Source: Candidatus Woesearchaeota archaeon
GTDB lineage: Archaea > Nanobdellota > Nanobdellia > Woesearchaeales > JAHWIC01
Length of the DNA: 64,000 nt
Assembly (NCBI GenBank): GCA_019322485.1
Contig: JAHWIK010000015.1
Location: forward strand, 23,216-87,215
Direction: 5' to 3'
Shown here: piece by piece, positions 24,839 through 58,272 of the stretch
Position numbering within the stretch: position 1 is the first letter of the stretch
Layout of the letters: every line of letters begins with the position of its first letter
The notes under the pieces: generated by a model
The model's database searches: none
What the model was told of the DNA's origin: nothing
Seen by the model: the letters and a program-made list of their open reading frames with translations, nothing else
Program-made: the position numbers and the translations under genes

Positions 24839-26016
24839 TTTTTCTTCCTCTTTTTAGGCTTTAGTTTCTTTATCATTATTATCAATGCTGCAGCTATAAT
24901 AGCTAAGGCAACTGCCACATACAACAATGGAGATACCTTTCTTTCTGCTTCGTGCAGCTCTATTGTAAACTCCCTTTCAAAGGTTTTATCTTTATAGTAA
25001 GCCTTTGCCTTTAGTTCATAAGATCCAAGCTCCAGCTCATGCGCTTCCCAATGAAGCCTTACAGAGCTGTTCCTGTTTGGTTCGATATCAATCCTGTTTG
25101 CTTCCATAGCTGCAATTACTGTGCCATTCCTGATAATATCTGCAGTCAGGTTAACATCCTCAAGCTCTTTATTCCAGTTTGACCCTAAGAACATATTTAT
25201 CCTGTTGATTTTATCAACAACAGCAGTTCTTGTTCCTAAGAAAATCAGCACCCCTTCTTCACCAATCCTAAAACTTCCAGTTTCTTCTACTGCTTTTCCG
25301 GAAAACTTAATGATTGATTCTGCATCATACTCACCAGGCTTGAACAGGAACTTCTTTATGGTTAATTGGTTTTCATGACTTTTTCCAGGCTCAATAGTAA
25401 ATGTTGCTTTTGGCAGGGATAGTATCTTCTTCTCTGTATTTCCCAGAATCTTATAACCAAGCACTACATCATGGAATCCATTTACAAGTGCAGCTTTGTA
25501 CAGGCTTGCAACTTTCTCTTTATTCTCATATATGTTAAGGTCATTCTCTATTCCTCCAATTGTTATTGCGCCTTTGTTTTCCATTACTGTTGTAAATTTC
25601 ATAAGATATTGGCTGTCATCAATAACCAAAAGCTCTGTTTTAAGGTATTCCTCAGGATACGGAACAAATAAATTAACCGTATGATGTACTGATGGCTTTG
25701 TTGTTACTGTTCCTGAACCTGCTGGTTCTTCATATACAACTATCTTAGCCTGATGCTCGCCAGGCCCGAAAGGCCCTGATAGGTTAAAGCTGAATTCTTT
25801 TGGGCCTATTACAACCCCTTCACGCGCAATCTCCACGTCAAGCTCACCTTCAACACCAATTGTAATCCTTGTTGGAAGGTTTGATGAAGGTATAACTGTA
25901 AAAACACCTGAATGCTCTTTATTCCCAAAGAAATCTGTCTTTGCGGGCATTGCCCCTAAAGCAAACACAGCGTCTATTGAAAGCACCAATATAATAAATA
26001 AAATCCATTTTTTCAT
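24835..26016 (-). CDS. surface protein with a signal peptide and a C-terminal TM anchor plus Lys-rich tail
   Basis: N-terminal signal peptide. C-terminal 'LLYVAVALAIIAAALIIMIKKLKPKKRKKK'. 4-nt overlap with the giant gene. Confidence 0.5.
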   Translation of the reverse strand: MKKWILFIILVLSIDAVFALGAMPAKTDFFGNKEHSGVFTVIPSSNLPTRITIGVEGELDVEIAREGVVIGPKEFSFNLSGPFGPGEHQAKIVVYEEPAGSGTVTTKPSVHHTVNLFVPYPEEYLKTELLVIDDSQYLMKFTTVMENKGAITIGGIENDLNIYENKEKVASLYKAALVNGFHDVVLGYKILGNTEKKILSLPKATFTIEPGKSHENQLTIKKFLFKPGEYDAESIIKFSGKAVEETGSFRIGEEGVLIFLGTRTAVVDKINRINMFLGSNWNKELEDVNLTADIIRNGTVIAAMEANRIDIEPNRNSSVRLHWEAHELELGSYELKAKAYYKDKTFEREFTIELHEAERKVSPLLYVAVALAIIAAALIIMIKKLKPKKRKKK

Positions 26017-32000: not shown

Positions 32001-32063
32001 TAAGAGGATAATACAAAGTACTAATTTAATAATTTCAGATATCTTTTTTGTTTTATCTTTCAT
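26013..32063 (-). CDS. giant (2016 aa) cell-surface adhesin/S-layer-like protein with at least a dozen MopE-like Cys/Asp repeats and dense N-glycosylation sequons
   Basis: N-terminal TM/signal. Repeats of 'C(T/S)DG(F/Y/V)DND(L/Q)D...DC' (e.g. CTDGFDNDDDGDTDC, CSDGFDNDQDGELDC, CTDSYDNDFDNSVDCEDSDC). Asn/Thr/Ser/Tyr-rich with many N-x-S/T sites. Confidence 0.7.
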   Translation of the reverse strand: MKDKTKKISEIIKLVLCIILLLVSSLNFFIIPDGKELSSITEITGGASSSGTVGFFLLRVADTSNNYRRRVFYEDGSVINLTVIGEGIIENLKANFSCMDSNYADGAETVTNTAGNNYSISYTISQSNTVTNVNNSEDSTCPVGEECHRTCTIPVTSGRRLNGTVQLAFYEGKAALNYAWYVGYVTRAANCAAGVDNSNYFLENNTCSSVFYNPADSSYYYGAKDVDFSIKKKNTPDVVETHCANNADDDGDGKIDCEDSDCASIVYGEYYIVGGSNTNKQGTPAWTCNKTAAGWRDDPPYDPGDLDGSLQCIDGGTCDASCAPNLCTGTASNTAVTYTYKIQPEALFSMRLYQTSQITGYTAYFKVWQFNTSLWQENPGDFWILNYSATTGLSGKTTSANSIIAQSGPNPPSDPTPYTQSTLDNVLKAMMNTTNNFYGMYGLVLNRIFNGSAYDFKFNINISDDGVRDEHDISCADSYDNDLDYTTDCIDIDCDAYIGSTSANPDGTYPLCAYQNESKYAATNNSCTDGFDNDDDGDTDCHYNAGTWDTDCNNTYILNSSWLSYNVGGINGTCELGVETICNDLFDNDRDRAFDCNTTAFFTGGVIQYLSNPTNPRSTYSGGGTYPHGEYDCFNDSNCPINESGITCIDGKDNDLDFYSGLPGAGADCRMVEYDIDCNSSVLPAGTCQLIFETSCSDGFDNDQDGELDCNTTSTGASTTNPNYQYGAGGSNIAHGEYDCQSTCNVTNYWENDGANCSDNKDNDLDYYTITGWTGTQYSATNNQYGGGMDCRYNYDGNHYPDADCDGVDMGPGKCELGHEINCTDGYDNDLDNAYNPGGNRTSASGGYDCDDYDCANDSACPTTETASLCTDGVDNDLDRYVYNITDYLLDSNRVENLSGGIDCIYYAYGLTPNQFWPYAIAYDSYRYDQDCNDTAIGPSGQNCELIIERNCTDVFDNDQDYYISQMQNPGWTNASYQYHFGANTYLQDGDCNDYSCYNNSACPGRENYTCSPTGCNSTQNWCLDSIDNDLDNYLSDGINLSTAAGAGIDCAWNNYDSDCNNTYINDSGNIGLCTIRWEYNCSDGVDNDQDLGTYYVGESGSAHAGANTGEDCDDYNCYAVQESGLYVCTDDGSGLSIVEQTCNDTLDNDLDAYTWNGTEYETNDASGTDCGDPDCNGLLGPGDILCALFEEMYFDPFDDTLCGDYNSSGTTAYSMDNDGDNLANCYDTGCYHQGLCRVCPPEENVTLDSCMDGLNNEYEYQDEYISKTNYDPNEINASLNDGVYDCRDSDCDGIVGVWSTSQGICNSASAGTGYRTTESACTDSYDNDFDNSVDCEDSDCSSGASCLAPYTNSLAACTLKCSDAAAVSYIGGEPPDYSVNTNWGGGTPDLTYTEYHWRGKNLTFTFTDSATNVNGKTIQIYLGSASATYVPLDYEMNASNSGIYGTDSGNFNVQYSAQSGYHYQAVLIEYSGAYPNQILNLTFWITVPDNDTIVQNSSFSYYVSTSIGGVEQNADVTQYILETEPPQAPVFVKTTPADDDYTTSRLRMIKTDNTVTRLSASDTVYVRVNATDSGTWNSGVELCQFNDGTGWVNETSAYDCRYALTLSDGLNTIYARAVDGVGNIGPNTSLTIDVRTLPKQTTGFFCIDTNCSTSYPTKDYYVPTETLNVAVNFTSTYGFTANASGCVVYAEKNSPGSRISLGSVPLASTGMCNGTVSLSGLSEGYYTVEVELRDDNDTRTVSGELPWSNGNSKENIWVCDYTQTYNGYTCKDACEREEANRPSKVILKSPESGNTTTELRPTFTWYNATYNGSTTAKYEIEIDDSPIFTSLDYSRGNLSEGSNNETSHTLISDLELDKTYFWRVRAYHSIISGEWSDVWNFTLSSYIAINLTRDVVDFGVVIPGFSESTEDDSPLPLLLENVGNLIVNISINATDLFETVPNPNESYQFAIGVNESGSFTSATTTLTPMPSNSTPAIYNLNWEDASDTAEIDLNATVPLLEPSGQKNSTILVRTT

Positions 32064-33996: not shown

Positions 33997-35889
33997 ATGG
34001 TTAAAGAGGAGTTAGATAGAAGTCACTTTCTTGATTTAGTCAGTAGTCCGAAGGATTTGAGGCTGTTGAATAAGCAGCAGTTAGATATGCTTGCTGAGGA
34101 ATTAAGAAGGCTAATAATTGAAACTGTAAGCAAGACAGGCGGCCACTTAGCGTCCAGCCTTGGTGTTATTGAATTAACTATTGCTTTGCATTATGTTTTT
34201 GACTCACCAAATGACAAGATAGTATGGGATGTTGGACATCAGGCTTATGCACATAAGCTGTTAACAGGAAGAAAAAATAAGTTCCATACCTTAAGGCAGC
34301 ACAAGGGCATAGCTGGTTTTCCAAAATCAAAGGAGAGCCCTCACGATGCCTTTGATACTGGACACAGCTCAACAGCAATATCAGCAGCTTTAGGAATAGC
34401 AGCTGCTCGCGATTTAAAGCATGAAAAAAACAAGGTGATAGCTGTTATTGGAGACGGAGCTTTAACTGGCGGAATGTCTTTTGAAGCCTTAAATCATGCT
34501 GGCTCATTAAAGAAAGACCTCATAGTAATCCTTAATGATAATGAGATGTCAATAAGCAAGAATGTAGGTGCTTTATCCTCTTATCTTTCAAAGCTGGTAT
34601 CAAAGCCTGGTTATGTCGACAGAAGAAAGAAAGTAGAAAGGATTTTAAGGGGGATACCTGGCCTGAGAAGGCAGGCTGCTAAGGTTTTTGGAATCGAGGA
34701 TACAATAAGGGCTTTAGCAGCTACAACTCCTGGCCTGATATTCAGGGAGCTTGGTTTTAGGTATTTTGGACCTGTTGATGGCCATAATATCGAGCAGATG
34801 ATAAAAACATTAGAGAACATAGAACAGCTTAAAGGTCCTATATTGCTTCATGTCATAACAAAAAAAGGGAAAGGCTATAGCTATGCAGAAGCTGACAGGA
34901 CAAGGTTTCATGGCATTGCGCCATTCAACATAGAGAATGGTGAAAAGAAGCACAAGAGCAGCGTTACATACACAACAGCATTCTCAAGATGTTTGACAAA
35001 GCTTGCAAAGCAGGACAAAAGGGTAGTTGCAATAACAGCAGCAATGAAGCCTGGAACAGGATTAGACCAGTTTGCAGGAATGTTTCCAGACAGGTTATTT
35101 GACGTCGGCATAGCAGAGCAGCATGCAGTTACATTTGCAGCTGGCTTGGCTAAGAACGGCTATAAGCCGGTATGCGCGATTTATTCTACTTTCCTGCAAA
35201 GGGCTTATGACCAGATTGTGCACGATGTTTGTTTGCAGAACCTGCCTGTTGTCTTTGCAATTGATAGAGCTGGCTTGGTCGGAGAGGACGGACCAACACA
35301 TCATGGAAGTTTTGATTTATCTTATCTGAGGCATATACCAAACATGACTGTAATGGCTCCAAAGGACGAGAATGAACTGGGGCATATGCTAAAAACAGCT
35401 TTAGAGATTGACGGGCCGGTTGCAGTAAGATACCCAAGAGGTACGGGCTTGGGGGTTGCAATACAGAACCCATACCACCCAATAGAATTAGGAAAAGCAG
35501 AAGTAATGCAGAAAGGAAAAGATTTGGCAATATTAGCAGTTGGTTCTTGCGTTGATATGGCGAATAAGGCTGCTGAGAAACTGGGGAAGAATAAAATAAA
35601 TGCAACCGTTGTTAATGTAAGGTTTGTAAAGCCTCTGGACGAGAAACTAATACTGAACCTAGCAAAGAAACACAGGAAACTGATTACTATAGAGGAGAAT
35701 GCATTAGATGGCGGTTTTGGTTCTGGTGTGCTGGAATTGTTGGAGCAGTATAACACCAAGGCAACGGTAAAAAGAATTGGAATACCTGATAAATTTGTAG
35801 AGCACGGTTCAATGTCAATCTTAAGAGAAAAAATTGGATTAACTGAGGATAATATAGTGAAGGAAGCGAAGTCGTTGATGGCAAAATGA
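33997..35889 (+). CDS. dxs: 1-deoxy-D-xylulose-5-phosphate synthase
   Basis: 'GGHLASSLGVIELTIALHYVFDSPNDKIVWDVGHQAYAHKLLTGR' (TPP-binding) and full-length similarity to Dxs. Confidence 0.9.
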   Translation: MVKEELDRSHFLDLVSSPKDLRLLNKQQLDMLAEELRRLIIETVSKTGGHLASSLGVIELTIALHYVFDSPNDKIVWDVGHQAYAHKLLTGRKNKFHTLRQHKGIAGFPKSKESPHDAFDTGHSSTAISAALGIAAARDLKHEKNKVIAVIGDGALTGGMSFEALNHAGSLKKDLIVILNDNEMSISKNVGALSSYLSKLVSKPGYVDRRKKVERILRGIPGLRRQAAKVFGIEDTIRALAATTPGLIFRELGFRYFGPVDGHNIEQMIKTLENIEQLKGPILLHVITKKGKGYSYAEADRTRFHGIAPFNIENGEKKHKSSVTYTTAFSRCLTKLAKQDKRVVAITAAMKPGTGLDQFAGMFPDRLFDVGIAEQHAVTFAAGLAKNGYKPVCAIYSTFLQRAYDQIVHDVCLQNLPVVFAIDRAGLVGEDGPTHHGSFDLSYLRHIPNMTVMAPKDENELGHMLKTALEIDGPVAVRYPRGTGLGVAIQNPYHPIELGKAEVMQKGKDLAILAVGSCVDMANKAAEKLGKNKINATVVNVRFVKPLDEKLILNLAKKHRKLITIEENALDGGFGSGVLELLEQYNTKATVKRIGIPDKFVEHGSMSILREKIGLTEDNIVKEAKSLMAK

Positions 35890-36923: not shown

Positions 36924-38305
36924 GCTGGAAATTAATCACATTAAAACAGTATCCGATGTTCTCGAGATGGTGGATACATGAAGCGTTTCTCCACGATATG
37001 AAAGATACTTTAGGTATGAATTTTAAAATGTACAAATCGCTCTATAGCGGGACTTATGCTGATAGTGATGAGGTTGAAAAGTTAAGGTCTATGTTAATAT
37101 CTAAACTTGAAAAAGATATTGATTCAATTAGGAAATTATGTGAGAATTGGAAACATGATTGTGATGAGCTTATTAGATTTACAAAAGAATTAGAAAAATC
37201 GGACTTCTCAAAAAACTCTGATGAGGAATTAGTTAATTTATCAGAGAATTGCATTAAAAAATTAAGAAGAAGCGCTTCATATATTTATCTGTCAGTTGTT
37301 TTGGATGAATATTTTCAGAATTGGCTGAATAAAATACTTGAAGCTAAGGTTCAGGACCAGAATGAGAGGACAAAATACTTCCAAATTCTTACATCTCCAA
37401 CAAAAAATACTAAATTAATTGACGCTAAGAAGGTATTAATTGAGATTTCTAAAGTTGTTAAAGAGAAAGGTCTTGAGGGAGCAGAGGACTTAATCAAAGA
37501 TTATGTATCTAAATTTAAATGGCTTGGATATGATACTGGAATTGGAAGTGATTTAACTATAGAACAAACAAAGGATAAGATTTCTAATATTCTTGAGCAA
37601 AAACAGCACGACTCTGATGTTAAAAATAGGGATGAGGTCTTGTCTGAGTTGGATCTCAATGAAAAAGATAAAGAATTACTTGACTTGATGGACGAACTTA
37701 TTTTCCTAAGGACTTATAGGGCTGAAAGCAATATGGTTGCAGGAGCTGATATAAGGCCTATTCTTGAAGAACTTGCAAAAAGAGCCAATACAAATTATGA
37801 TAATCTAGTTCAATTAACCATTGATGAAATAAAAGACTCAATAAAGTCAAAAAAAGTAGACTTGAAGAAGATTGAGGAGAGAAAGAATAAGTATGGCTTG
37901 TTAATGGTCGATGGAAAGAATACAATCTACAGTGGAGATGAAGTGGATAAAGTAGAGGAAAAGGTTGAAGTTCCTGAAGGATTGACAGAGTTAAAAGGAT
38001 TAGTAGCACACCATGGAAATAAGAGGGGCCATGTTAAGATTGTTTTGAGGCATAAAGACTTTGATAAGATTGAATTTGGAGATATTTTGGTAACAAAGAT
38101 GACTAATCCTGATTTTATAGTTGTTTTAGAACAGTGTTCTGGAATAATTACAGACATTGGAGGGATAACCTCTCATGCAGCGATTGTTGCACGAGAACTA
38201 AACAAGCCATGCATTACAGGAACTCAATATGCTACAAAAGTCTTGAAAGATGGTGACTTAGTTGAGCTTGATACAGATAAAGGCATTGTAAAGATAATAA
38301 AATGA
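36920..38305 (+). CDS. protein of unknown function (461 aa): a novel ~340-aa N-terminal region plus a C-terminal PEP-utilising-enzyme mobile (phosphohistidine swivel) domain. It is embedded in the MEP operon at the position where dxr would be expected.
   Basis: C-terminal 'GLVAHHGNKRGHVKIV...GGITSHAAIVARELNKPCITG' is the PEP-utilisers domain with the catalytic His. ATGA overlaps with both ispG and ispDF. Confidence 0.6.
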   Translation: MSWKLITLKQYPMFSRWWIHEAFLHDMKDTLGMNFKMYKSLYSGTYADSDEVEKLRSMLISKLEKDIDSIRKLCENWKHDCDELIRFTKELEKSDFSKNSDEELVNLSENCIKKLRRSASYIYLSVVLDEYFQNWLNKILEAKVQDQNERTKYFQILTSPTKNTKLIDAKKVLIEISKVVKEKGLEGAEDLIKDYVSKFKWLGYDTGIGSDLTIEQTKDKISNILEQKQHDSDVKNRDEVLSELDLNEKDKELLDLMDELIFLRTYRAESNMVAGADIRPILEELAKRANTNYDNLVQLTIDEIKDSIKSKKVDLKKIEERKNKYGLLMVDGKNTIYSGDEVDKVEEKVEVPEGLTELKGLVAHHGNKRGHVKIVLRHKDFDKIEFGDILVTKMTNPDFIVVLEQCSGIITDIGGITSHAAIVARELNKPCITGTQYATKVLKDGDLVELDTDKGIVKIIK

Positions 38306-39453
38306 ACATAGCAATCATAACAGCAGCTGGAAAAGGAACAAGGATGAATGAAAAAGTCAATAAAATATTGTTATCTTTAGTCGATAAATCAATAATTGAA
38401 GAAACAATCGAGGTTTTTGAGGCGTGTAAAGATATTGATGAGATAATTATTGTTGGAAACAGCGATGATATTGAATCATTAAACAAAATCAATGAAAAAA
38501 ATAATTATAAAAAAATTAAAAAAATCATTGAAGGCGGAGAACAACGGCAGGATTCAGTGTTTAATGGAATAAAATCCATTGAAAATGCGAGTAATGATGA
38601 TATTTTATTGATTCATAATGGTGCAAACCCCCTTGTAGACGAGAAAACGATTCTTGAATGTATTAAAGAAGCAAAGGAGCATGGGGCAGCTGTTGCTGCA
38701 ATGCCTGCAAAAGATACAATAAAACAGGTTGAGAATGGTTTTGTTGCTAAAACATTGGATAGAAAGCAGCTCTGGCAGATGCAGACACCGCAAACAATCC
38801 AGTTTGGGCTTGCGAAAGAGGCTTTTGAAAAGGCATTTGCTGATAATTTCTATGGAACTGATGATGTTGGGCTTGTAGAAAGGCTTGGAAAAAAGGTTAA
38901 GATTGTTGAGTGCAATACTGAGAACGTAAAAATCACAACAAAGAATGATTTAGAACAAGCAAGACTCTTGCTTAATGCTTCTGTTGTTGGAATCGGACAG
39001 GATTCCCACAAATTTACCGACGAGAAAAAGGATTTAGTTTTGGGTGGTGTAGTAATTCCAAATGAGCAGGGCTTAGAAGCAAACTCTGATGGTGATGTCA
39101 TCCTGCATGCCTTGTTTAATGCTTTAAGCCAGGCAGCTGGAGAAAAATCATTGGGAAATTATGCAGATTCAATGTGTGAGAATGGAATAAAAGACAGCAG
39201 AGAGTATCTAAGAGTGATTTTAGACATAATCAACAAGAAAAATTACAAGATAAATAATGTTGGCTTTATGATAGAAGCAAAAAAGCCAAGGCTAGGGGCT
39301 AATGAAGACAGAATAAAAGAGAATATTGCAAATTTATTGGGAATAACTAAAGATAAAGTTGGAATAACAGCAACCTCAGGAGAGGAATTAACTCCATTTG
39401 GCCAGGGCAAGGCAATACAGGTATTTTCAGTTGCAAGCTTAACAAGAAAATAA
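38302..39453 (+). CDS. ispDF: bifunctional MEP cytidylyltransferase / MEcPP synthase (IspDF)
   Basis: N-terminal 'IAIITAAGKGTRM' (IspD). C-terminal 'IGQDSHKF...GLEANSDGDVILHAL' (IspF). Confidence 0.85.
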   Translation: MNIAIITAAGKGTRMNEKVNKILLSLVDKSIIEETIEVFEACKDIDEIIIVGNSDDIESLNKINEKNNYKKIKKIIEGGEQRQDSVFNGIKSIENASNDDILLIHNGANPLVDEKTILECIKEAKEHGAAVAAMPAKDTIKQVENGFVAKTLDRKQLWQMQTPQTIQFGLAKEAFEKAFADNFYGTDDVGLVERLGKKVKIVECNTENVKITTKNDLEQARLLLNASVVGIGQDSHKFTDEKKDLVLGGVVIPNEQGLEANSDGDVILHALFNALSQAAGEKSLGNYADSMCENGIKDSREYLRVILDIINKKNYKINNVGFMIEAKKPRLGANEDRIKENIANLLGITKDKVGITATSGEELTPFGQGKAIQVFSVASLTRK

Positions 39454-47541: not shown

Positions 47542-49299
47542 ATGAAGTATCAAAATCTGGTTAATGTTTATCAAAAACTTGAAGCAACAACAAAGCGCTT
47601 AGAGAAGACCCATATTATCTCTGAGTTTTTGAAAACAATTGAAGCAGAGGATTTACCTAAGGTTATTCTGCTGCTGCAGGGAAAGCTATTTCCAAATTGG
47701 GATCCAAGCAAGATTGGTGTTGCTTCCAGGCTGATTTTGAAGGCTATTGCAATTTCTACTGGAATTGATACGAGCAAGGTTGAGAATAGCTGGAAGCGAA
47801 GCGGTGACCTGGGAAAAACTGCTGAAGAGCTTGTTGTGCTCAAGAAACAGGCAACACTCTTTTCAAAAGAGTTGGATGTAAAGAAGGTCTTTGATAACCT
47901 GAGAAAACTTGCAACCTTGGAAGGAGCAGGCACTGTTGAAAGAAAGATTCAATTAATTGCTGAGTTGCTGACAAGTGCAGAGCCGTTAGAAGCAAGATAT
48001 ATAGTACGGACTGTTTTAGGTGAGCTAAGGGTTGGTGTTGGAGAAGGAAGCTTGCGTGATGCAGTTGTTTGGGCATTCTTTACAGATGAGATAGGCTTTA
48101 CATATAATACTAAAGAAAATAATATTGAGATTGAGAACAGGGATGATTATAACAAGTATGCAAATGCTGTTCAGCAGGCTTACGATTTGACAAATGATTT
48201 TTCTTCTGTTGCTAAGGTTGCTAAGACTGCTGGCATTGATGGCTTGTTGAATATGGAGCTTGAGGTTAACAGGCCTGTTAAGGTTATGCTTGCCATAAAG
48301 GTAAAGGATATTGGTGATGGCTTTGAAAGGGTTGGAAAGCCAGCTGCTGTTGAGTTTAAGTATGACGGCTTTAGGATGCAGATACATAAAGCGCATGATA
48401 AGATAACTATATTTACCCGGCGTTTAGAGGATGTCACAAGACAGTTTCCTGAGGTTGTTAAGTATGTTAAGGATAATGTTAAGGGCAAGGAATTTATTAT
48501 TGATTCTGAGGCTGTTGGTTACGACCCTAAAACAGATAAGTATCTGCCTTTCCAGAGTGTTTCCCAGAGAATAAAAAGAAAGTATGATATTGAGAAGATG
48601 GCTAAGGATTTCCCTGTTGAGCTTAATGTTTTTGATATAATCTATTTTGAGGGAAAGAATCTGATAAAAGAAGGATTTGGCAGAAGACGAGAGGTTCTCT
48701 GGAAGATTGTAAACCAGGTTCCTAAGAGGATAGTTCTTGCAAAGAATCTGATAACCTCTAGTGAGGATGAGGTTAGGGCTTTTTATAATGAATCTTTAGA
48801 GGCTGGCAATGAGGGGATTATGTTTAAGACTCTTGATGCTCCCTACAAGCCTGGTGCTCGTGTTGGCCATATGGTAAAGTTAAAGCCTACAATGGAAACA
48901 CTTGATTTAGTCATAGTTGGTGCTGACTGGGGCGAGGGTAAAAGAGCTTCATGGCTTTCAAGCTTTACAATTGCATGCATTGATGATAATGGAAATTTTC
49001 TTGAGGTTGGAAAGGTTGGCACTGGTATAAAGGAAAAAGAAACTGAAGAAGGGGTAACGTTTAAGCAGCTTACTGAATTGCTTAAGCCTTTGATAATTGC
49101 AGAGAAAGGCAAAGAGGTTAAGATACAGCCGAAGATTGTTATTGAGATAACCTATGAAGAGATACAGAAAAGTCCTACTTATGCTTCTGGTTATGCTTTA
49201 AGGTTTCCTAGGCTGCTTAATATTCGTGAAGACCGTTCTGCTGAGGATATAAGCACTTTAGAGATGGTTGAGGAGTTTTATCTTGGACAGAAGAAATAA
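47542..49299 (+). CDS. lig: ATP-dependent DNA ligase (archaeal/eukaryotic type)
   Basis: Adenylation motif I 'EFKYDGFRMQIHK' (KxDGxR) and OB-fold C-terminus. 585 aa. Confidence 0.85.
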   Translation: MKYQNLVNVYQKLEATTKRLEKTHIISEFLKTIEAEDLPKVILLLQGKLFPNWDPSKIGVASRLILKAIAISTGIDTSKVENSWKRSGDLGKTAEELVVLKKQATLFSKELDVKKVFDNLRKLATLEGAGTVERKIQLIAELLTSAEPLEARYIVRTVLGELRVGVGEGSLRDAVVWAFFTDEIGFTYNTKENNIEIENRDDYNKYANAVQQAYDLTNDFSSVAKVAKTAGIDGLLNMELEVNRPVKVMLAIKVKDIGDGFERVGKPAAVEFKYDGFRMQIHKAHDKITIFTRRLEDVTRQFPEVVKYVKDNVKGKEFIIDSEAVGYDPKTDKYLPFQSVSQRIKRKYDIEKMAKDFPVELNVFDIIYFEGKNLIKEGFGRRREVLWKIVNQVPKRIVLAKNLITSSEDEVRAFYNESLEAGNEGIMFKTLDAPYKPGARVGHMVKLKPTMETLDLVIVGADWGEGKRASWLSSFTIACIDDNGNFLEVGKVGTGIKEKETEEGVTFKQLTELLKPLIIAEKGKEVKIQPKIVIEITYEEIQKSPTYASGYALRFPRLLNIREDRSAEDISTLEMVEEFYLGQKK

Positions 49300-50619: not shown

Positions 50620-52584
50620 ATGGTACCAGATAATGGAGAAAAGGATACTGGTAACTCTACAGAAGGACCTCCAGAGGACACCCAAGGAGAACCTACAGAG
50701 AGCCCTACAGAAGCCTCTACAGAAGAACCTGAAGAAGAAAAGCTTCTAGTAATAAGACCTTTTGATGAGGTTAAGGCGGATTTGATAAGGCTATCTGAAT
50801 CAACGGATGATGCTGAGAAGGAAGTGATTCGTGGTAGGTTACATGAGGACTTCGATTCTGTCTATCCTATGTTAAAGGGACTGCCTCGCGGGGAAGATGC
50901 TACACTTCTTTCCTACCCTGGGCAAGAGAATATGGTTTCTGCTGTGGATATGGTTGCTAAAAAACCCAAAAAGAAATATGTAGATATGGCAAGCCAACAA
51001 CTAGGCAGGCTTTATGAATCGTATCAGGCAGAGGTTCTTCAAGCGAAATGGAATACTGAAGCTGAGAAACTGCAGTCAGCAGTAGCAAACCCACAAGAGA
51101 CAATAACCCATCTAAGAACTTCCCTTTCTTCTCATCTGTCAGGGCTTCATAGAGATGTTCGTGCTTGTACCATCGACCTATTAATAAAATATAGGGACTT
51201 TAAAATAGGGGAAGATCCTGCTCGGGATGAGGAGAGGATCACTGATAGTTTGCTTGACCCTGAAGATGGGTATTACATCTTAGGTTATACCATAAGGATT
51301 TTTGAGGATGTAAGCGCTAGATATAATGATGTCCGGCTTAAGCAACTTGCACTGAATCCAAGTATTGCTGATACAGCCCGTACCTTATTGCAGATAGTTA
51401 ATGAGGCTCGAAAGATAACTGGGGAGGCTGGCCTTAGTTTAGAAATCTCGTGCAGGGAAGAACTTGAAGCTATGCTGGAGAAAGGAGAGCCTTCTCCTGC
51501 TGATTCAGAGAGGATACTTGCCACTAATAACGAAATACTAATACAACTTGGTAATTTCTTGCTTGATGCTGTTCAAGGCACAAGTTTAGAAGGTAAGTTG
51601 GATTATAAGAAACAAGACTTGCCTGAGAGAGAGCAGGCAGATAAACCAAAAGCGCCACGCAGGGAATATAAAAGGTCTGCTCCGAGCAGGGTATTTTCAA
51701 ATGAATCTCACTCTGAACTTGCAGGTCTTATTTGCACGCTTTCTGCTTCAGAGAATAACGAGGAGTGGGCAGAGATGAGGGGGTGTATAAAAGGAATGCT
51801 GAGTGAGGCGTATAGAGCAATAGGGATAACAGAGGCACATGTGAACGAAATACGTTTGACCTATCCTAAAGAGGAGGAGTTATGTTCTTTGGCTGATAAA
51901 ATTCCTGAACAAAAGGAGACAACTTATGAATTAACTGCTAAGGTGAGAGCTCTTTATGAAGCTGGCACTGCTTACACTGCCCTGGCTTTTTGGAAGAGAT
52001 GGGTGGCTTCATTAAAGGAAGAGTTGGCAACTGAATCTATGGTATATGATACCTGGAAAGGTGCTTTATCAACTTATATGAAGCATTGCGCACCTGAATC
52101 TAGGGACGAAGTTAATAAACGTTTGATAGCGCGTAGAAGGTCAGTCATGGGAGAAGAAGAAAGCCAGAAGTATAGTGATGAGGAAATACTTTTAGCAGTA
52201 AATTCCGAGCTGGATGACAGAGGTAGGCCTGATTTAATGTTAGATCATTCTGCAATATTTTTTGAGGTTGCTATAGAAGATTACGCTCGTTTAGCAAATG
52301 ATGTATGTAAGAAATGGAGGGGCACAACTGAGTTTATTGGTGCTATGCTTAGGTTTTGTGGCGGTGTTTCTCCTTTGGCAGGCTCGTTAGGTATAACTGC
52401 AGATGATTCAGACAGCACCAAACTTAAGGAGTCGTATGAAAAAGGGCTGGGCTATGTTATGGAAGATGAGCATGACCCAAAAGATGTTGCTAATACTTTA
52501 GGTACTTCAAAGAATGTATTGAAGCAGTACGGGGAAATTTATATTAAAATTCTTGAGAAGGTTGCTGAAGAGAAACAGAAATAA
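50620..52584 (+). CDS. large acidic cytoplasmic protein of unknown function (654 aa), compositionally atypical, ending 1 nt before a tRNA gene
   Basis: No TM helix. N-terminal Pro/Glu/Thr acidic stretch. Higher GC than neighbours. Confidence 0.5.
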   Translation: MVPDNGEKDTGNSTEGPPEDTQGEPTESPTEASTEEPEEEKLLVIRPFDEVKADLIRLSESTDDAEKEVIRGRLHEDFDSVYPMLKGLPRGEDATLLSYPGQENMVSAVDMVAKKPKKKYVDMASQQLGRLYESYQAEVLQAKWNTEAEKLQSAVANPQETITHLRTSLSSHLSGLHRDVRACTIDLLIKYRDFKIGEDPARDEERITDSLLDPEDGYYILGYTIRIFEDVSARYNDVRLKQLALNPSIADTARTLLQIVNEARKITGEAGLSLEISCREELEAMLEKGEPSPADSERILATNNEILIQLGNFLLDAVQGTSLEGKLDYKKQDLPEREQADKPKAPRREYKRSAPSRVFSNESHSELAGLICTLSASENNEEWAEMRGCIKGMLSEAYRAIGITEAHVNEIRLTYPKEEELCSLADKIPEQKETTYELTAKVRALYEAGTAYTALAFWKRWVASLKEELATESMVYDTWKGALSTYMKHCAPESRDEVNKRLIARRRSVMGEEESQKYSDEEILLAVNSELDDRGRPDLMLDHSAIFFEVAIEDYARLANDVCKKWRGTTEFIGAMLRFCGGVSPLAGSLGITADDSDSTKLKESYEKGLGYVMEDEHDPKDVANTLGTSKNVLKQYGEIYIKILEKVAEEKQK

Positions 52585-53375: not shown

Positions 53376-54944
53376 TCATTGATTCCAATCTTTAAGACTA
53401 ATCTGTCCTTTTCTCTTGCGTTCAGGAACTTTTGATTTATCTATGTCCTCGCCAACCTGCTTCTTGACGTCAATCGCAACCTTTTTCCCAAGTATTTGGA
53501 CTAGTTTTGTGATGTCAGCTTTCTTCACACCTGAAACATCCTTAATCTTGTTTCTGAATAAAGCTCTTGCACGCACTCTTCCAACATTCTTTATCCTAAG
53601 CAGAGGCAGCAGCTCTTCCTTAACACCATACTTAAGCCTTAACCTAAGCTTTATTATCTCGCTTATCAAAGATTTCAGCTTAAGAATCCTGCACAGCTCT
53701 TCTGCTGCATAAAGAAGCCAGTCCGCATTATCCACTTTAACCCGCAATTCACCAGGCCTTACATTAAACTCTTCAAGAATAAATTCCTCATCCTTTTCAT
53801 CTATCCAGTTCTGCATGAATAAGGCAGTCTTAACTGAGCTGAGAAAATCCTCATATTCTGGGTCATACATAGATGGAATCTCTTCCAGTATAGAGTCATG
53901 GTATGTCACCAAAGCTTCTTCTATTTTCTCGTATTCCTTTACCCTTACCTTGAGCAGGGGCCTTATTTCTAGTGTGTGCGATACCATCTGCAGGAATGAA
54001 AATGCTTCTGTCCTGTTATGGGCCTTTTTTAGACATTCAATAAAGAAATGCGCTGTCAGAGGGTCAATATAAAGCTCAGCAACCCTTTTTCCTAGGATTG
54101 TTGCCTTGTACTTTTCATTTCCAAATTCATCAGCTGTTTGGAAGTCAGCACTTTTGCTTGTGGATGTTAAGAATCCCCAGTCCTCAAGCAGGGTCAGCAT
54201 CCTCATGATAATCTCTTCAAGCTTTTCCATATCCTTGAACTGATAAGCCCAGAATGTTTTTTCAAAAAAATCAAGAATGCTTTTCTTGTCATTGATAAAG
54301 TTAGCAGCAATCAATGACAGCAGATAAGTCCTGAGAACAGGCTCGACTGCAAGCTTTGAATAGATGTCTTCCGGCTCTCCCAGGATATATTTCTCATGAA
54401 TCTTTTTTTTCTCAGGCTTTGTTGCAGCTATTGCTATTGCCTGGCCTTCCTTGTCATAATTAGGACGGCCGGCACGGCCAGCCATCTGCAGATATTCTAG
54501 GACAGGGATAAACTGCATTCCACGATGACCGTAACGCCTTAAATCCTTGAGGATAGCCCTGAATGCAGGCAAATCAACTCCTAAGGCGAGTGTTGGTGTG
54601 GCACAGATAATCTTTATTGTTCTGTCCCTGAAAGAATTCTCAATTAATTCTTTTTGCTTATGGGTTAAGCCTGCGTGATGGAATGCAATGCCTTTCTTGA
54701 CGCATGAAGCCAGCCTTTCACACTGCCTTGTTGGCCTTGAAAGAACTTTTAGTACAGCTTCAGAAAGTTCTTGAAGTTTTTTATCACTTATTTTGGCTTT
54801 TTTAGAAATCTCTTCTGCAGTTTTTTCAGCAGAGCGCTTTGTATTCACGAATACAATCGCCTGTTTATTTTTATTTATAGTATCTAATGCAAGGTTTATT
54901 GTTGCATCATCAGCATTCCCGCTAATCTTTACTGTTTTATCCAT
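53376..54944 (-). CDS. Hel308/Ski2-like helicase, C-terminal portion only (RecA2, winged-helix, ratchet and HhH domains); the N-terminal RecA1 ATPase domain is missing.
   Basis: 'IVFVNTKRSAEKTA', 'FHHAGLTHKQKELIENSFRDRTIKIICATPTLALGVDLPA' and 'QMAGRAGRPNYD' are helicase motifs IV-VI. There are no Walker A or DEAH motifs. Only 33 nt separate it from the upstream gene. Confidence 0.6.
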   Translation of the reverse strand: MDKTVKISGNADDATINLALDTINKNKQAIVFVNTKRSAEKTAEEISKKAKISDKKLQELSEAVLKVLSRPTRQCERLASCVKKGIAFHHAGLTHKQKELIENSFRDRTIKIICATPTLALGVDLPAFRAILKDLRRYGHRGMQFIPVLEYLQMAGRAGRPNYDKEGQAIAIAATKPEKKKIHEKYILGEPEDIYSKLAVEPVLRTYLLSLIAANFINDKKSILDFFEKTFWAYQFKDMEKLEEIIMRMLTLLEDWGFLTSTSKSADFQTADEFGNEKYKATILGKRVAELYIDPLTAHFFIECLKKAHNRTEAFSFLQMVSHTLEIRPLLKVRVKEYEKIEEALVTYHDSILEEIPSMYDPEYEDFLSSVKTALFMQNWIDEKDEEFILEEFNVRPGELRVKVDNADWLLYAAEELCRILKLKSLISEIIKLRLRLKYGVKEELLPLLRIKNVGRVRARALFRNKIKDVSGVKKADITKLVQILGKKVAIDVKKQVGEDIDKSKVPERKRKGQISLKDWNQ

Positions 54945-54976
54945 GAAAAAACAAGAAGAAATACGAATATAAATAG

Positions 54977-57130
54977 TTATACCTTTTCTGTTACAACGTA
55001 CGTCTTGTAAGTATACTGCCTTGGTGGTATTGGTTGAGGTGCGGGTTGAGGTGTTGGTTCTGGTGCAGGCTGTGGTGCTGGTGCAGGCGCTGGTGTTGGC
55101 TCAGGAGTAGGCTCCGGAGCTGGTTCTGGTGCAGGCTGTGGTGCTGGTGCAGGTGTTATTGGTGTTGGTTGCGGTGCGCTTGTAACAACCATTTGAGGAA
55201 GGGTTTGCCGTTCTATTACACTAACAATCCATCTGACACTTACAGCAGCTTTGCCATCAGAGATAATAACTCTCACCTCTTTTTTTCCAGGAGAAGTAAA
55301 CCAACGTCTATGCAGCGGGCCCCCTTTGTAGCGCGCAAGTGGACCAAATATCCATTCATAGCTTAGTGCATCACCATCAGGGTCCTGGGCAGATGCTTGG
55401 AACAAAACAGAGCTGTTGACATAAACACCAAATTGACCCACCATTGGGCTGACATTCCATACAACAGGCTCCCTGTTTGTGTTGTGCACAAGGACTACTG
55501 CATCTTCGCTTGAATTTAAGTCACCATCTGAAGCTGTAAAGGTGACTGTATATTGTTTTGCTTCCAGCCTTCTTGTCTCATCATGGCTGGGGGTCCAGCT
55601 AAACCCGTCTGCATCAAAACTTGAGCCGGCAGGCACATCTTCTGCAGATGTGACAATCCTGTCATTATCTGGGTCATAGGAATTAACATTAAAGTGTAAA
55701 ACTGCTCCTTCATCTACATCCTGCTGAGGTATTTCCTCAAGAACAGGCGGCCTGTTAACATTATTTACAACAACTGTTACGTTCTTCTCAACAGAGGTTT
55801 TGCTGTCAGATAATTTAATAAATACTGTGTAGGTGCCTGCATCATCATAACCAGTCCCTTTCACAGCTTTGTTCATCCAGCCGCTATATCTATAAGATAC
55901 CTTATCACCATCAAGGTCATATCCATTAGGCTCTAATACAAGGGTTTCCCCTTCATTCATGACTATTGTTCCCATATCTTCAAGCACAGGGGCCCTATTC
56001 TCTTCCATGACCCTAATCTTTATGGTTTTGGTTGTGCTAAATTCATTGCTTTCAGCCAGGAATGTTATAGTTTGAGTTCTGCTGAGTAAGTGGAAATTGT
56101 CAAGGAAATATGTAAAGAGGTTTGTTTTTTTAACAAAATCCTTGCTTGGTGTCCATTTAAAGACATTGCCATCAAATCCTGAATTTTCCGGCGCTTCAAG
56201 AACTGTGATTATTATATCATCGCCATCTGGGTCGCTGGCATTTACTACTAAGTTTACTTCCTCACCTTCTCTTACAGTTATATCATGGAGTGGTTCAATT
56301 ATCGGTTCGCGGTCTACATCATAAACTACAAGGTCTACCTTTTTTGAATATTCAAAATCCCTGTCCCTTATTGTTATTGTTACCATGTATTCACCATCAT
56401 CCTCATAGGTGGTTTGCCAGAAATTTTCATTGCCTATTGGCTCTGATATCTCATATTCAAGATGGTAGGCTCCTAAATCAGGAAGCTCGATACTTACTAT
56501 GTCTGTTTCATCTACTTCAATATAGCTTATGTTATCCAGGAGTTGTGCCCTGTCAACATCCTCAATATCCATAGTCCATTCCTGGGATGTTTTAAGCGTG
56601 CTGTCAGATACAACTACTTTTATGGTATGCGTTCCCTGGTCAAAATAGTCTGCGTAATACTCAATCTCTTGCTCCCTGCCTAAGAATTCATCATCAATGA
56701 ACCATTTGTAGGTTAGTTCATCTTCGTTTATGTCAGAGGCCTCAGCCCTGAAGTAGAGGCTTTCACCCTCTTCAATTGACAAAGAGGTATCTTCTGGGTA
56801 GAAATCATATATTTCAGGCTGTTCTTCTTTTTTGTTAACAACGATTATGACCTCTTCTTCTGTGATAAGGTCGCCGTCAGAAGCAGTGACTGAGGCAATA
56901 TAATTTCCAGCATCTCCATAGGTAGTTTGCCATTCTCCCTCGCTGTTTAAGGGGTATGTGTAGGAATATTCTAATGTATCACCGTCAGGATCATCAAAAG
57001 AAGGTTTTATGGAGACAAGGTCAGTCTCATTAACTATCATATTAGTTAGAGAATAAGTTATTGGCAATACAATAATTAGAACTAATACTAAAATTAACCA
57101 TTTCTTATCCATTAACCCAACCCCCAACAT
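54977..57130 (-). CDS. surface protein with multiple Ig-like (PKD/cadherin-like 'DPDGD') repeats and a C-terminal Pro/Thr/Ala-rich linker
   Basis: Signal/TM N-terminus. Repeated '...DPDGD.L.Y.Y...W.TTY.D.G.Y....SDG' modules. '(PAPEPT)n' tail. Confidence 0.6.
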   Translation of the reverse strand: MLGVGLMDKKWLILVLVLIIVLPITYSLTNMIVNETDLVSIKPSFDDPDGDTLEYSYTYPLNSEGEWQTTYGDAGNYIASVTASDGDLITEEEVIIVVNKKEEQPEIYDFYPEDTSLSIEEGESLYFRAEASDINEDELTYKWFIDDEFLGREQEIEYYADYFDQGTHTIKVVVSDSTLKTSQEWTMDIEDVDRAQLLDNISYIEVDETDIVSIELPDLGAYHLEYEISEPIGNENFWQTTYEDDGEYMVTITIRDRDFEYSKKVDLVVYDVDREPIIEPLHDITVREGEEVNLVVNASDPDGDDIIITVLEAPENSGFDGNVFKWTPSKDFVKKTNLFTYFLDNFHLLSRTQTITFLAESNEFSTTKTIKIRVMEENRAPVLEDMGTIVMNEGETLVLEPNGYDLDGDKVSYRYSGWMNKAVKGTGYDDAGTYTVFIKLSDSKTSVEKNVTVVVNNVNRPPVLEEIPQQDVDEGAVLHFNVNSYDPDNDRIVTSAEDVPAGSSFDADGFSWTPSHDETRRLEAKQYTVTFTASDGDLNSSEDAVVLVHNTNREPVVWNVSPMVGQFGVYVNSSVLFQASAQDPDGDALSYEWIFGPLARYKGGPLHRRWFTSPGKKEVRVIISDGKAAVSVRWIVSVIERQTLPQMVVTSAPQPTPITPAPAPQPAPEPAPEPTPEPTPAPAPAPQPAPEPTPQPAPQPIPPRQYTYKTYVVTEKV

Positions 57131-57156: not shown

Positions 57157-58272
57157 TTATCTTTGTTCTATTCCTAGGAATACAGGTGCCCTGTTAACGT
57201 TTTCAACAGCCACGTTTATCTGCTGGCTTACTGAAAGGTCACCGTCGCTTACTGTTATTGTTACATCATAGCTGCCTGAATCATCATAGGTTGTATCCCA
57301 CGCAAAGACATTCCCTTCCTGCTCAAATTTGTCGCTATCTGCTGCAAAGGATAGGCCGTCTCCATCTAGGTCAGAGGCTTCTACAACAATTATTACAGGC
57401 TCATTTTCATTAACTATGATGTTGTCTAGTTCTTCCATTTCAGGCGGCCTGTTAACATTTTCAACTGTAATAGCCCATATCTGTGATGTCTCAAGTGTGC
57501 CGTCGGTTATTGATAACTTAATAGTGTGTGAACCAGCACTGTCATAGCCTAGGTCAAATGCGAATGAGGTGTCGGTTGATACTTCCTCGCCATCAATCTT
57601 CCATTCATAATCCAGGTAATCACCATTAAGGTCTGATGCTGATACGCTGAATTCTATGATGTTATCCTCTGCTATGATTAATTCTGTATCTGCTGGATTA
57701 GCAAACTCAATTATTGGGGCCTCTTCTTTTCTGTTTACAATTATTAATACATCCTGTGAAGCAGAAAGGTCTCCATCAGATGCGGTTATTGTTACTGTGT
57801 ATTCACCCTCATCTCCATAAGTAGTTTGCCAATCACCTATGCCATCAAGAGGTGATGTGAATGCGTAAGTTAAAGGGTCTCCATCAGGGTCAGTTGCGTC
57901 AGGTTCTAAGCTGACAAGCTCTGTTTCTTCTACTATGATAACAACTGCTTGCTGGTCAACAACGTCTACATCTTCTAATACTACTTCCTCCTCTTCCTCA
58001 ATAATCTCAATGACCTCTTCAATGTCTTCCTCGACCTCTTCTTCCTCTTCCTCATCTCTTCTGAAGATGTCAAGAGGGCTTGTTCTTTCTTCCTCCTCTT
58101 CCACTTCTTCTTCCTCTTCTGCAACCTCCTCATCTTCTTCACCCTCAACAACAATATCATCCATGCTTATTGTAGAAACATCAGATTTGCCATATATATC
58201 TTCATAGATTTGACATCCACTCAATAAGAACAAGACTATCACACCAATTACAAGTAAATATTTCTTAAACAT
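57157..58272 (-). CDS. lipoprotein with a poly-Glu acidic region and the same Ig-like repeat type
   Basis: 'LFLLSGCQ' lipobox. 'EEEEEVEEEEE' runs. 'DPDGDPLTYAFTSPL...WQTTYGDEGEYTVTITASDGD' repeats. Confidence 0.55.
   Translation of the reverse strand: MFKKYLLVIGVIVLFLLSGCQIYEDIYGKSDVSTISMDDIVVEGEEDEEVAEEEEEVEEEEERTSPLDIFRRDEEEEEEVEEDIEEVIEIIEEEEEVVLEDVDVVDQQAVVIIVEETELVSLEPDATDPDGDPLTYAFTSPLDGIGDWQTTYGDEGEYTVTITASDGDLSASQDVLIIVNRKEEAPIIEFANPADTELIIAEDNIIEFSVSASDLNGDYLDYEWKIDGEEVSTDTSFAFDLGYDSAGSHTIKLSITDGTLETSQIWAITVENVNRPPEMEELDNIIVNENEPVIIVVEASDLDGDGLSFAADSDKFEQEGNVFAWDTTYDDSGSYDVTITVSDGDLSVSQQINVAVENVNRAPVFLGIEQR

What the first reader, a model, noticed from the sequence alone, without database searches (positions are those of the whole stretch)
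53376..54944. Hel308-type helicase ORF lacking its entire RecA1 ATPase domain
The ORF starts exactly at the RecA2 domain (motifs IV-VI, 'QMAGRAGRP') and continues through the winged-helix, ratchet and HhH domains. No Walker A or DEAH-box segment exists, and only 33 nt separate it from the next gene, so there is no room for a frameshifted N-terminal half. It is either a split gene whose RecA1 half is encoded elsewhere (as with the split genes of Nanoarchaeota) or a decaying pseudogene.
Basis: partly seen in the sequence, partly recalled or inferred. Interest (0 to 1): 0.55.

Follow-up and report, generated by a model that had tools for sequence, protein, structure and literature searches.

The report
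Two-gene (split) Hel308 helicase, C-terminal subunit
This intact, strongly conserved gene encodes only the back two-thirds of the DNA-repair helicase Hel308, because in Woesearchaeota-type archaea the enzyme is made from two unlinked genes, so this is a lineage-wide split gene and not a dying pseudogene.

Summary
Window 53376-54944 (-) encodes 522 aa that align end to end with Hel308/Hjm residues ~217-711: RecA2 motifs IV, IVa, V and VI, then winged helix, ratchet and HhH. It has no Walker A or DExH, and an unrelated PKD surface-protein gene ends 32 nt upstream.

It is not a pseudogene:
- All 120 closest database relatives (61-88% identity) are also 510-548 aa with the same architecture.
- dN/dS against an 85%-identical relative is 0.06.
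- The motif VI arginines and motif IVa are invariant.
- The gene has its own TATA-like box at -29.

A matching family of stand-alone ~220-aa DEAD/DEAH proteins exists in the same lineage. These carry RecA1 with motifs Q and I-III intact. They end exactly where the C-halves begin (positions 223-227 versus 225-227 of a full-length relative). In seven assemblies both halves are present on different contigs. Genomes labelled Pacearchaeota keep a fused 724-727-aa gene.

The best reading is a heterodimeric Hel308 whose ATPase cleft forms between two polypeptides. No intein signature is present.

The N-half of this particular genome could not be located, because the MAG is not in the searchable collections. 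I found no published description.

The parts
53376..54944 (-). Gene for the C-terminal subunit of a two-gene Hel308 (522 aa; identical to NCBI MBW2980328.1, KY360_02840)
   Evidence: ORF. Hjm/Hel308 alignment. Pfam. Exact database match.
54966..54973 (-). TATA-like box TTTATATT, at -29 to -22 from the ATG. It suggests an own promoter and a leaderless or very short-leader mRNA.
   Evidence: Sequence. The same element sits at -31 to -28 in 16 of 25 C-half loci, against 7.7% at random positions.
54945..54976 (-). 32-nt spacer between the stop codon of the upstream PKD/Big_9 gene and the helicase ATG. It leaves no room for an N-terminal extension.
54384..54944 (-). RecA2 lobe (aa 1-187), lacking its first beta-hairpin. 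Contains motif IV (54834-54863), IVa FHHAGL (54666-54683), V (54567-54599) and VI QMAGRAGR (54465-54488).
   Evidence: Alignment to Hjm 217-399. Invariant columns F88 H89 H90 G92 L93 T116 L119 G122 P126 Q153 G156 R157 G159 R160.
54063..54377 (-). Winged-helix domain (aa ~190-294, corresponding to Hjm domain 3)
   Evidence: alignment. Domain limits from PMC2636818. Weak HTH_61 hit.
53625..54062 (-). Ratchet domain (domain 4; aa ~295-440)
   Evidence: PF21280 Helicase_dom4_arc, aa 316-440, E 3.7e-33.
53445..53624 (-). Helix-hairpin-helix domain 5 (aa ~441-500)
   Evidence: HHH_5 at 20.7 bits, below the cut-off. Aligned to the Hjm C-terminus up to residue 711.

Best explanation
The ORF is the functional gene for the large (C-terminal) subunit of a Hel308 DNA helicase that is encoded by two unlinked genes in Woesearchaeota-type DPANN archaea.

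Origin (inferred): one ancestral fission cut hel308 about 19 residues into RecA2.

The two genes (shown):
- The N-gene (~220 aa) makes RecA1 with motifs Q, I, Ia, Ib, II (DEIH) and III (SAT), then RPVKL and a beta-hairpin tail.
- The C-gene (this ORF) makes the rest of RecA2 (motifs IV, IVa, V, VI) plus the winged-helix, ratchet and HhH domains.
- Each gene has its own TATA-box promoter, start codon and stop codon.

Assembly and action (inferred):
- The two polypeptides associate non-covalently. The N-half tail hairpin probably completes the RecA2 sheet next to the first strand of the C-half. The WH and ratchet domains probably clamp RecA1, as in the ring seen in single-chain Hel308.
- ATP would then bind between subunits, with Walker A/B from N and the motif VI arginines from C.
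- The complex would translocate 3'->5' on ssDNA like ordinary Hel308.
For: Conservation of the truncated form:
- All 120 best homologues (61-88% identity) are 510-548 aa with Helicase_C plus domain 4 and no DEAD domain.
- dN/dS against the 85%-identical L008 gene is 0.064, with dS 1.47.
- Motifs IVa, V and VI are invariant across 60 C-halves down to 38% identity.

The partner family:
- A profile of full-length N-termini retrieves about 110 stand-alone proteins of 216-244 aa among the 120 listed hits. The named ones are labelled Woesearchaeota 'DEAD/DEAH box helicase'.
- DE[IV]H and SAT are present in 111 of 111. The Walker A residues are invariant in a 45-sequence subset (A3).
- Their best PDB hit is Hjm residues 8-216, E 9e-66.

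Tiling:
- N-halves end at positions 223-227 of full-length P0145. C-halves begin at 225-227.

Same genome, unlinked:
- GCA_030651135.1: N on a 731-kb contig, C on a 272-kb contig.
- GCA_016180285.1.
- JAHWIR01, JAHWIT01, JAAOYC01, JAZGHU01 and JAHWIB01.
- Apart from the fused gene in L047, no locus has the other half within +/-10 kb.

Own promoters:
- A TATA-like heptamer lies near -30 in 16 of 25 C-half loci and 11 of 18 N-half loci, against 7.7% background.

Structure models:
- The N-half model has pLDDT 90 with a tail beta-hairpin at 211-220.
- The C-half model has pLDDT 89.5, with its first 13 aa unstructured when alone.

Fused relatives exist:
- L047 encodes a 724-aa protein.
- The 90% cluster of P0147 includes a 727-aa member labelled Pacearchaeota.

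Precedent:
- Naturally split reverse gyrases form active heterodimers (PMC4117796).
Against: - The N-half of this very genome was not found. It is not in the 64-kb window, and the MAG is absent from the searchable contig collections.
- Physical association of the halves and ATPase or helicase activity are inferred only.
- The beta-strand-complementation interface rests on secondary-structure predictions of the separate halves and on alignment to Hjm, not on a model of the complex.
- The NJ tree is star-like. A single origin of the split is therefore likely but not proven. A few short forms scatter among full-length sequences, and at least one of them (P0147) is a truncated gene call.
Confidence: 0.82

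Rival explanations
1. Decaying pseudogene: a 5'-truncated remnant of hel308 that no longer functions.
For: It lacks about 215 N-terminal residues relative to every solved Hel308. NCBI calls it 'hypothetical protein'.
Against: - The ORF is full length with no stops.
- The same truncation point occurs in all 120 nearest homologues from independent assemblies.
- dN/dS is 0.064.
- The motif VI arginines and motif IVa are invariant.
- A conserved TATA box sits about 30 nt upstream.
- Some relatives maintain inteins inside the gene.
Confidence: 0.02
2. Assembly, frameshift or gene-calling artefact: the gene is really full length and the 5' part was lost through a sequencing or assembly error.
For: The sequence comes from a MAG. 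Truncated calls do occur in this family. For example, P0147 (517 aa) sits in a 90% cluster with a 727-aa protein.
Against: - The upstream 2.1 kb is an intact, unrelated PKD/Big_9 gene ending 32 nt before the ATG.
- No RecA1-like coding potential appears in any frame of the window.
- The same gene structure and a similar upstream promoter sequence occur in the closest relatives (L008, L009), and the truncated structure holds in dozens of other assemblies made with different technologies.
Confidence: 0.01
3. Neofunctionalised stand-alone protein: the C-half acts without any RecA1 partner, for example as an ATP-independent DNA-binding or strand-annealing factor. The ~220-aa DEAD proteins would then serve something else.
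For: - The halves are unlinked and show no conserved gene neighbourhood.
- The C-half folds confidently on its own in silico.
- Hel308 and HELQ have an ATP-independent annealing activity tied to motif IVa. This comes from the abstracts of PMC10484726 and PMC13623763 as listed.
Against: - Motif V and the motif VI residues Q153, G156, R157, G159 and R160 matter only for an ATPase cleft formed with RecA1. They are invariant.
- The N-halves keep every ATPase motif, are Hel308-specific, and end exactly where the C-halves start.
- Both halves were present in all seven assemblies where both could be looked for.
Confidence: 0.08
4. The halves are rejoined covalently, either by protein trans-splicing through a split intein or by RNA-level trans-splicing.
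For: - Inteins do occur in this gene family, in motifs V and VI of some C-halves.
- tRNA halves are trans-spliced in Nanoarchaeum (PMC3491384).
Against: - The N-halves stop within 0-4 residues of the homology boundary, so there is no ~100-aa IntN.
- The C-halves begin with Met plus native sequence, so there is no ~35-aa IntC.
- The residues after the Met are variable.
- Both genes have their own start and stop codons and their own promoter-like elements.
Confidence: 0.02

Closest known systems
Archaeal Hel308/Hjm (Ski2-like SF2 DNA helicase; PDB 2ZJ2, 2P6R, 2VA8)
   Same: Domains 2-5 are the same in order and sequence (about 35% identity by Foldseek, E 6e-91). Motifs IV, IVa, V and VI, the RecA2 beta-hairpin region, the ratchet domain and the HhH are all present. 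The partner N-half matches Hjm 8-216.
   Different: All characterised Hel308 and HELQ enzymes are single polypeptides. Here the motor is divided between two unlinked genes, cut about 19 residues into RecA2, so the ATPase site must form between subunits.
Split protein genes of Nanoarchaeota (N. equitans/Nst1: reverse gyrase NEQ318/434, Lhr 'large helicase-related protein' NEQ003/409, RNA polymerase B and others)
   Same: Both are DPANN archaea in which an informational protein is encoded by two unlinked ORFs that tile a protein contiguous elsewhere. The state is derived rather than ancestral (PMC3655853; PMC6349945).
   Different: Hel308 is not on the published split-gene lists. This split is shared by a very broad mesophilic clade, with hundreds of 90%-identity clusters labelled Woesearchaeota, Nanoarchaeota or Nanoarchaeia. 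It is not confined to one or two hyper-reduced thermophiles.
Naturally split reverse gyrases (N. equitans, M. kandleri)
   Same: These are two-subunit versions of a normally single-chain SF2-containing enzyme. The subunits associate into an active heterodimer (PMC4117796).
   Different: Those splits fall between the helicase and topoisomerase modules, or inside the topoisomerase. They do not fall between the two RecA lobes of the motor itself.
Split Dph1/2 in Woesearchaeota and Pacearchaeota (Narrowe et al. 2018, as cited in PMC6349945)
   Same: It is a precedent for a lineage-wide gene fission in the same archaeal group.
   Different: It is an unrelated enzyme. The Hel308 split appears absent from Pacearchaeota-labelled genomes.
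Intein-interrupted Hel308 and Lhr genes
   Same: The same family hosts inteins in motifs V and VI (P0121, L048, L049, L052-L054). aLhr2 inteins are described in PMC8301817.
   Different: Inteins are excised to give one chain. At the N/C junction described here there is no intein sequence at all.

Membership tests
Hel308/Hjm (COG1204-type Ski2-like DNA helicase) | RecA2 lobe with motifs IV, IVa (F/YHHAGL), V and VI (QxxGRAGR) | tested here: met
   Present at aa 28-37, 88-93, 116-126 and 153-160. These columns are invariant across the family.
Hel308/Hjm (COG1204-type Ski2-like DNA helicase) | Winged-helix, ratchet (domain 4) and HhH (domain 5) following RecA2 | tested here: met
   PF21280 E 3.7e-33. 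Alignment to Hjm reaches residue 711. Foldseek top hits are Hjm and Hel308. HhH and WH are sub-threshold in Pfam.
Hel308/Hjm (COG1204-type Ski2-like DNA helicase) | RecA1 lobe (motifs Q, I, Ia, Ib, II, III) in the same polypeptide | tested here: not met
   There is no DEAD/ResIII hit and no Walker A or DExH in the ORF or in any of 120 relatives. There is no upstream coding room. In relatives it is supplied in trans by a separate ~220-aa protein.
Hel308/Hjm (COG1204-type Ski2-like DNA helicase) | DNA-stimulated ATPase and 3'->5' helicase activity | not testable with these tools
   Needs biochemistry with both subunits.
Nanoarchaeota-type split protein gene | Two ORFs that together tile, without overlap or gap, a protein that is contiguous in other organisms | tested here: met
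   N-halves end at P0145 positions 223-227 and C-halves start at 225-227. N aligns to Hjm 8-216 and C to Hjm ~217-711.
Nanoarchaeota-type split protein gene | Both halves present in the same genome at unlinked loci | tested here: met
   Seven assemblies carry N and C on different contigs. Apart from the fused gene in L047, no adjacency was found in about 55 loci with +/-10 kb flanks. This was not testable for the window's own MAG.
Nanoarchaeota-type split protein gene | Both halves intact and under purifying selection | tested here: met
   dN/dS is 0.064 for the C-half. Catalytic motifs are invariant in both halves.
Nanoarchaeota-type split protein gene | Subunits associate to restore activity | not testable with these tools
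   Inferred by analogy with split reverse gyrase (PMC4117796).
Split-intein (protein trans-splicing) gene pair | IntN (~100 aa) at the end of the N-half, IntC (~35 aa) plus a conserved Cys/Ser/Thr +1 at the start of the C-half | tested here: not met
   Both halves end or begin at the homology boundary with variable residues and no extra sequence.
Pseudogene | Disrupted reading frame, relaxed selection, sporadic occurrence | tested here: not met
   The ORF is intact, dN/dS is 0.064, and the architecture is universal among its relatives.

The most novel reading that the evidence does not exclude
The fission may be more than neutral genome erosion. It could have turned Hel308 into a regulated two-component machine. 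In this reading the C subunit alone (RecA2-WH-ratchet-HhH, with an invariant motif IVa) would bind or anneal DNA without ATP. ATP-driven translocation would switch on only when the separately transcribed RecA1 subunit docks. Subunit stoichiometry or association would then replace the intramolecular 'catalytic switch' described for single-chain Hel308.
Probability: 0.1. Interest if true: 0.75.

Novelty: new variant of a known kind. Interest (0 to 1): 0.5.

Why it matters
- **Motor mechanism.** Hel308/HELQ is a core genome-stability helicase and is always described as a single chain. A natural version with RecA1 and RecA2 on separate polypeptides, conserved across a very large archaeal clade, shows that the SF2 motor tolerates loss of the covalent inter-lobe link. 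It also offers a ready-made system for asking how inter-lobe coupling, ring closure by the WH and ratchet domains, and the annealing/translocation switch work.
- **Annotation.** The halves are currently labelled 'hypothetical' or 'helicase-related protein' and 'DEAD/DEAH box helicase'. A published Ski2-like survey removed partial sequences (PMC10946056), so Hel308 may be scored as absent or partial in these genomes.
- **Evolution.** The fission looks like a shared derived character. It is split in genomes labelled Woesearchaeota and fused in those labelled Pacearchaeota. It could therefore serve as a rare genomic change marker within Nanoarchaeota/Nanobdellota.

Tried and rejected
- **RecA1 half in the window.** One lies in a 340-aa ORF that Pfam identifies as a MoxR/AAA ATPase, and the other in an 864-aa ORF with no Pfam match.
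- **N-half next to the C-half in relatives.** None was found in L001, L002, L006 or L007, nor in the 48 genome loci, except the genuinely fused L047.
- **Retrieving the window's own contig or MAG.** The exact protein is not in the contig index. The genome is not among the GTDB representatives; the best C-half hit there is 85% identical, in JAHWIC01. The N-half of this genome could therefore not be checked.
- **First combined MAFFT alignment.** The alignment of N-halves, C-halves and full-length sequences misplaced the C-halves. It was redone with L-INS-i.
- **NJ tree of 138 representatives.** It is star-like. It shows one main split clade of 36, two small pure-split groups of 5 and 3 that branch separately (the group of 5 lies beyond the full-length P0145/L047/P0170), and six scattered singletons. 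It is too weak to prove a single origin.
- **Literature searches for a described split Hel308.** None was found.
- **RNA searches.** Rfam and tRNA scans of the window found nothing.
- **Split-intein idea.** Rejected from the junction sequences.

Full report
**Observation**

The ORF at 53376-54944 on the minus strand is intact and encodes 522 aa. Pfam finds Helicase_C and the archaeal helicase domain 4. It also finds sub-threshold HhH and HTH matches and no DEAD/ResIII domain.

Against solved structures the best match is P. furiosus Hjm (E 6e-91). ORF residues 17-512 align to Hjm 228-711, and S. solfataricus and A. fulgidus Hel308 come next. Motifs IV, IVa (FHHAGL), V (TPTLALGVDLP) and VI (QMAGRAGR) are all present.

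The gene immediately upstream (54977-57130, same strand) is a 717-aa PKD/Big_9 surface protein. Only 32 nt lie between its stop codon and the helicase ATG. A RecA1 probe finds nothing credible in any frame of the 64-kb window.

Hjm domain 2 begins at residue 198 (PMC2636818). The ORF therefore begins about 19 residues inside RecA2, not exactly at its edge.

**Not a pseudogene and not an artefact**

The protein is identical to NCBI MBW2980328.1 (KY360_02840, Candidatus Woesearchaeota). All 120 best database hits, at 61-88% identity and from many independent assemblies, are 510-548 aa. They share the same two Pfam domains and have no DEAD domain. None has a Walker A or a DExH box.

- Against the closest relative with DNA in hand (L008, 85% aa identity), dN/dS is 0.064 at dS 1.47.
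- In a 60-sequence alignment reaching down to 38% identity, F88, H89, H90, G92, L93 (IVa), T116, L119, G122, P126 (V) and Q153, G156, R157, G159, R160 (VI) are invariant.
- Some relatives carry inteins in motif V or VI of this gene. That fits a protein that has to work.
- An AF2 model of the ORF is confident (pLDDT 89.5) and its best structural matches are Hjm and Hel308.

**The missing half exists as a separate gene family**

A search of 50%-identity representatives showed three kinds of relative: short forms like this one, full-length proteins of ~715-750 aa, and intein-bearing versions of both. I built a profile from the N-termini of the three closest full-length proteins. It retrieved about 110 stand-alone proteins of 216-244 aa. 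Where a source names them, they are 'DEAD/DEAH box helicase [Candidatus Woesearchaeota archaeon]'.

- DE[IV]H and SAT are present in 111 of 111.
- Walker A, motif Ia and RPV.L are present in more than 90%.
- Q30, the P-loop residues (P49, T50, S52, G53, K54, T55), D147, E148, H150 and S181, A182, T183 are invariant in a 45-sequence subset.
- Their best PDB match is Hjm residues 8-216, E 9e-66.

**The two families tile exactly**

Aligned to the full-length relative P0145, the N-halves end at positions 223-227 and the C-halves begin at 225-227. There is no overlap, no missing segment and no extra sequence. This excludes a split intein. It also argues for one shared break point.

**Same genome, unlinked**

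| Assembly | N-half | C-half |
|---|---|---|
| GCA_030651135.1 | JAUSCS010000006.1 (731 kb) | JAUSCS010000013.1 (272 kb) |
| GCA_016180285.1 | JACPBO010000047.1 | JACPBO010000042.1 |
| JAHWIR01 | L015 | L024 |
| JAHWIT01 | L017 | L026 |
| JAAOYC01 | L022 | L027 |
| JAZGHU01 | L021 | L029 |
| JAHWIB01 | L051 | L049 |

The last five came from one scan of species-representative genomes with a fused N-consensus plus C-half query. That scan used only six exact peptide patterns, so a genome appearing with only one half is not evidence that the other half is absent.

Across about 55 loci with up to 10 kb on each side, the other half is never nearby. The single exception is L047, which carries an ordinary fused 724-aa gene. 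That sequence groups with P0147. The 90% cluster of P0147 contains a 727-aa protein labelled Candidatus Pacearchaeota.

In a rough NJ tree, 36 of the 50 short forms make one pure clade. Two small pure-split groups (5 and 3 sequences) branch separately. The group of 5 lies beyond the full-length P0145, L047 and P0170. Six singletons scatter among full-length sequences, and at least one of them is a truncated gene call. A single ancient fission in the Woesearchaeota-type lineage is the simplest reading, but it is not proven.

**Independent expression**

The window gene has TTTATATT at -29 to -22 from its ATG. A TATA-like heptamer starts at -31 to -28 in 16 of 25 C-half loci. It starts within -40 to -24 in 11 of 18 N-half loci, most of them near -30. 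The background rate at random positions is 7.7%. That spacing is what one expects for archaeal leaderless or short-leader mRNAs; this expectation is my own knowledge, not a tool result. Each half also has its own start and stop codon.

**How it most likely works (inferred)**

- The N-half model shows a well-folded RecA1 (pLDDT 90.2). After RPVEL, the tail forms a beta-hairpin at residues 211-214 and 217-220.
- In Hjm these residues belong to domain 2.
- The first 13 residues of the C-half correspond to the next strand in Hjm, and they are unstructured in the model of the isolated C-half.
- I therefore propose that the N-tail hairpin inserts beside the first strand of the C-half to complete the RecA2 sheet.
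- I also propose that the WH and ratchet domains hold RecA1. In single-chain Hel308, domains 1, 3 and 4 form the DNA tunnel (PMC2636818).
- ATP would be bound by the N subunit and sensed by the motif VI arginines of the C subunit.
- The only moderate global TM-score of the isolated C-half model to Hel308 (~0.6, pTM 0.68) fits a ring that is not closed without RecA1.
- Active heterodimers of naturally split reverse gyrases are the precedent (PMC4117796).

**What is known**

Published split-gene lists for Nanoarchaeota include reverse gyrase, Lhr and others, but not Hel308 (PMC3655853). A DPANN review mentions split reverse gyrase, tRNA synthetases and Dph1/2. A 2024 phylogenomic survey of archaeal Ski2-like helicases removed 53 'partial' sequences (PMC10946056). 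A 2026 Hel308/HELQ review does not mention DPANN or a two-polypeptide form. I found no description of a two-gene Hel308. My searches cover open-access text only.

**Limits**

- The N-half of this particular genome was not seen. It is not in the window, and the MAG is not in the collections I could query.
- Association and activity are inferred.
- No model of the complex could be made with the tools allowed.

**Verdict**

This is a real feature and a lineage-wide gene fission of Hel308. The gene is functional by every sequence criterion available. It is a new architectural variant of a well-known helicase and another case of the known DPANN split-gene phenomenon. Interest is moderate.

Noticed in passing
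P0121; L048 3365-5398; L049 4358-7417; L052 8108-11263; L053 3804-6863; L054 5973-9080: Some C-half genes carry large insertions, about 400-520 aa by HSP spacing. They sit at two sites: inside motif V (TPTL | SAGIDMP in P0121, near query aa ~120-124) and at motif VI (aa ~158, L048). From the P0121 sequence these look like inteins. Full-length relatives of ~1100-1250 aa exist too.
   Followed up: partly
L016 4815-4888; L002 ~9960-10000; L006 ~5090-5132: A tRNA-Asn gene lies directly upstream of the C-half in L016. A tRNA-like 3' end (GGAGTTCAAATCTCCGCGGGGCCA) abuts the C-half ATG in L002 and L006, although ARAGORN calls no tRNA there. In N. equitans, small RNA genes flank split genes (PMC3491384).
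   Followed up: partly
window 33997-35889 (+), 38302-39453 (+); L003 1-7731: Bacterial-type MEP/DOXP isoprenoid pathway genes occur in this archaeal window: DXP synthase and an IspD/IspF fusion. They also occur next to the N-half in L003 (DXS, DXR, GcpE, IspDF, LytB).
   Followed up: no
window 15432-17414 (-): The ribosomal protein L10/P0 ORF is 660 aa, but Pfam domains cover only aa 6-180. That leaves an unusually long C-terminal extension.
   Followed up: no
window 26013-32063 (-), 9911-12505 (-), 50620-52584 (+): Large ORFs of 2016, 864 and 654 aa have no Pfam match at all.
   Followed up: no
window 54977-57130 (-), 57157-58272 (-); L001 6675-9631: Two tandem PKD/Big_9/cadherin-like surface-protein genes lie upstream of the helicase gene. 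The 717-aa protein has a Pro/Ala/Glu/Thr-rich repeat near its C-terminus. The same kind of gene pair precedes the C-half in the 65%-identical L001, so there is some local synteny.
   Followed up: partly
window 47542-49299 (+): An ATP-dependent DNA ligase gene lies about 4 kb from the helicase gene. This neighbourhood is not conserved in relatives, where Topo VI or PRPP synthetase genes are nearby instead.
   Followed up: partly
L009, L010, L020, L025, L028, L032, L035, L037, L041, L045, L052, L054 (record titles): Many TPA_asm contigs that carry Woesearchaeota-type split halves are titled 'uncultured Methanosarcinales archaeon'. These are probably taxonomic mislabels in the source records.
   Followed up: no
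L031 1055-2311: A second, distantly related SF2 helicase gene (32-35% identity to both halves, contiguous) lies about 4 kb upstream of the C-half in one Woesearchaeota MAG. It is a different paralogue, not the missing half.
   Followed up: no
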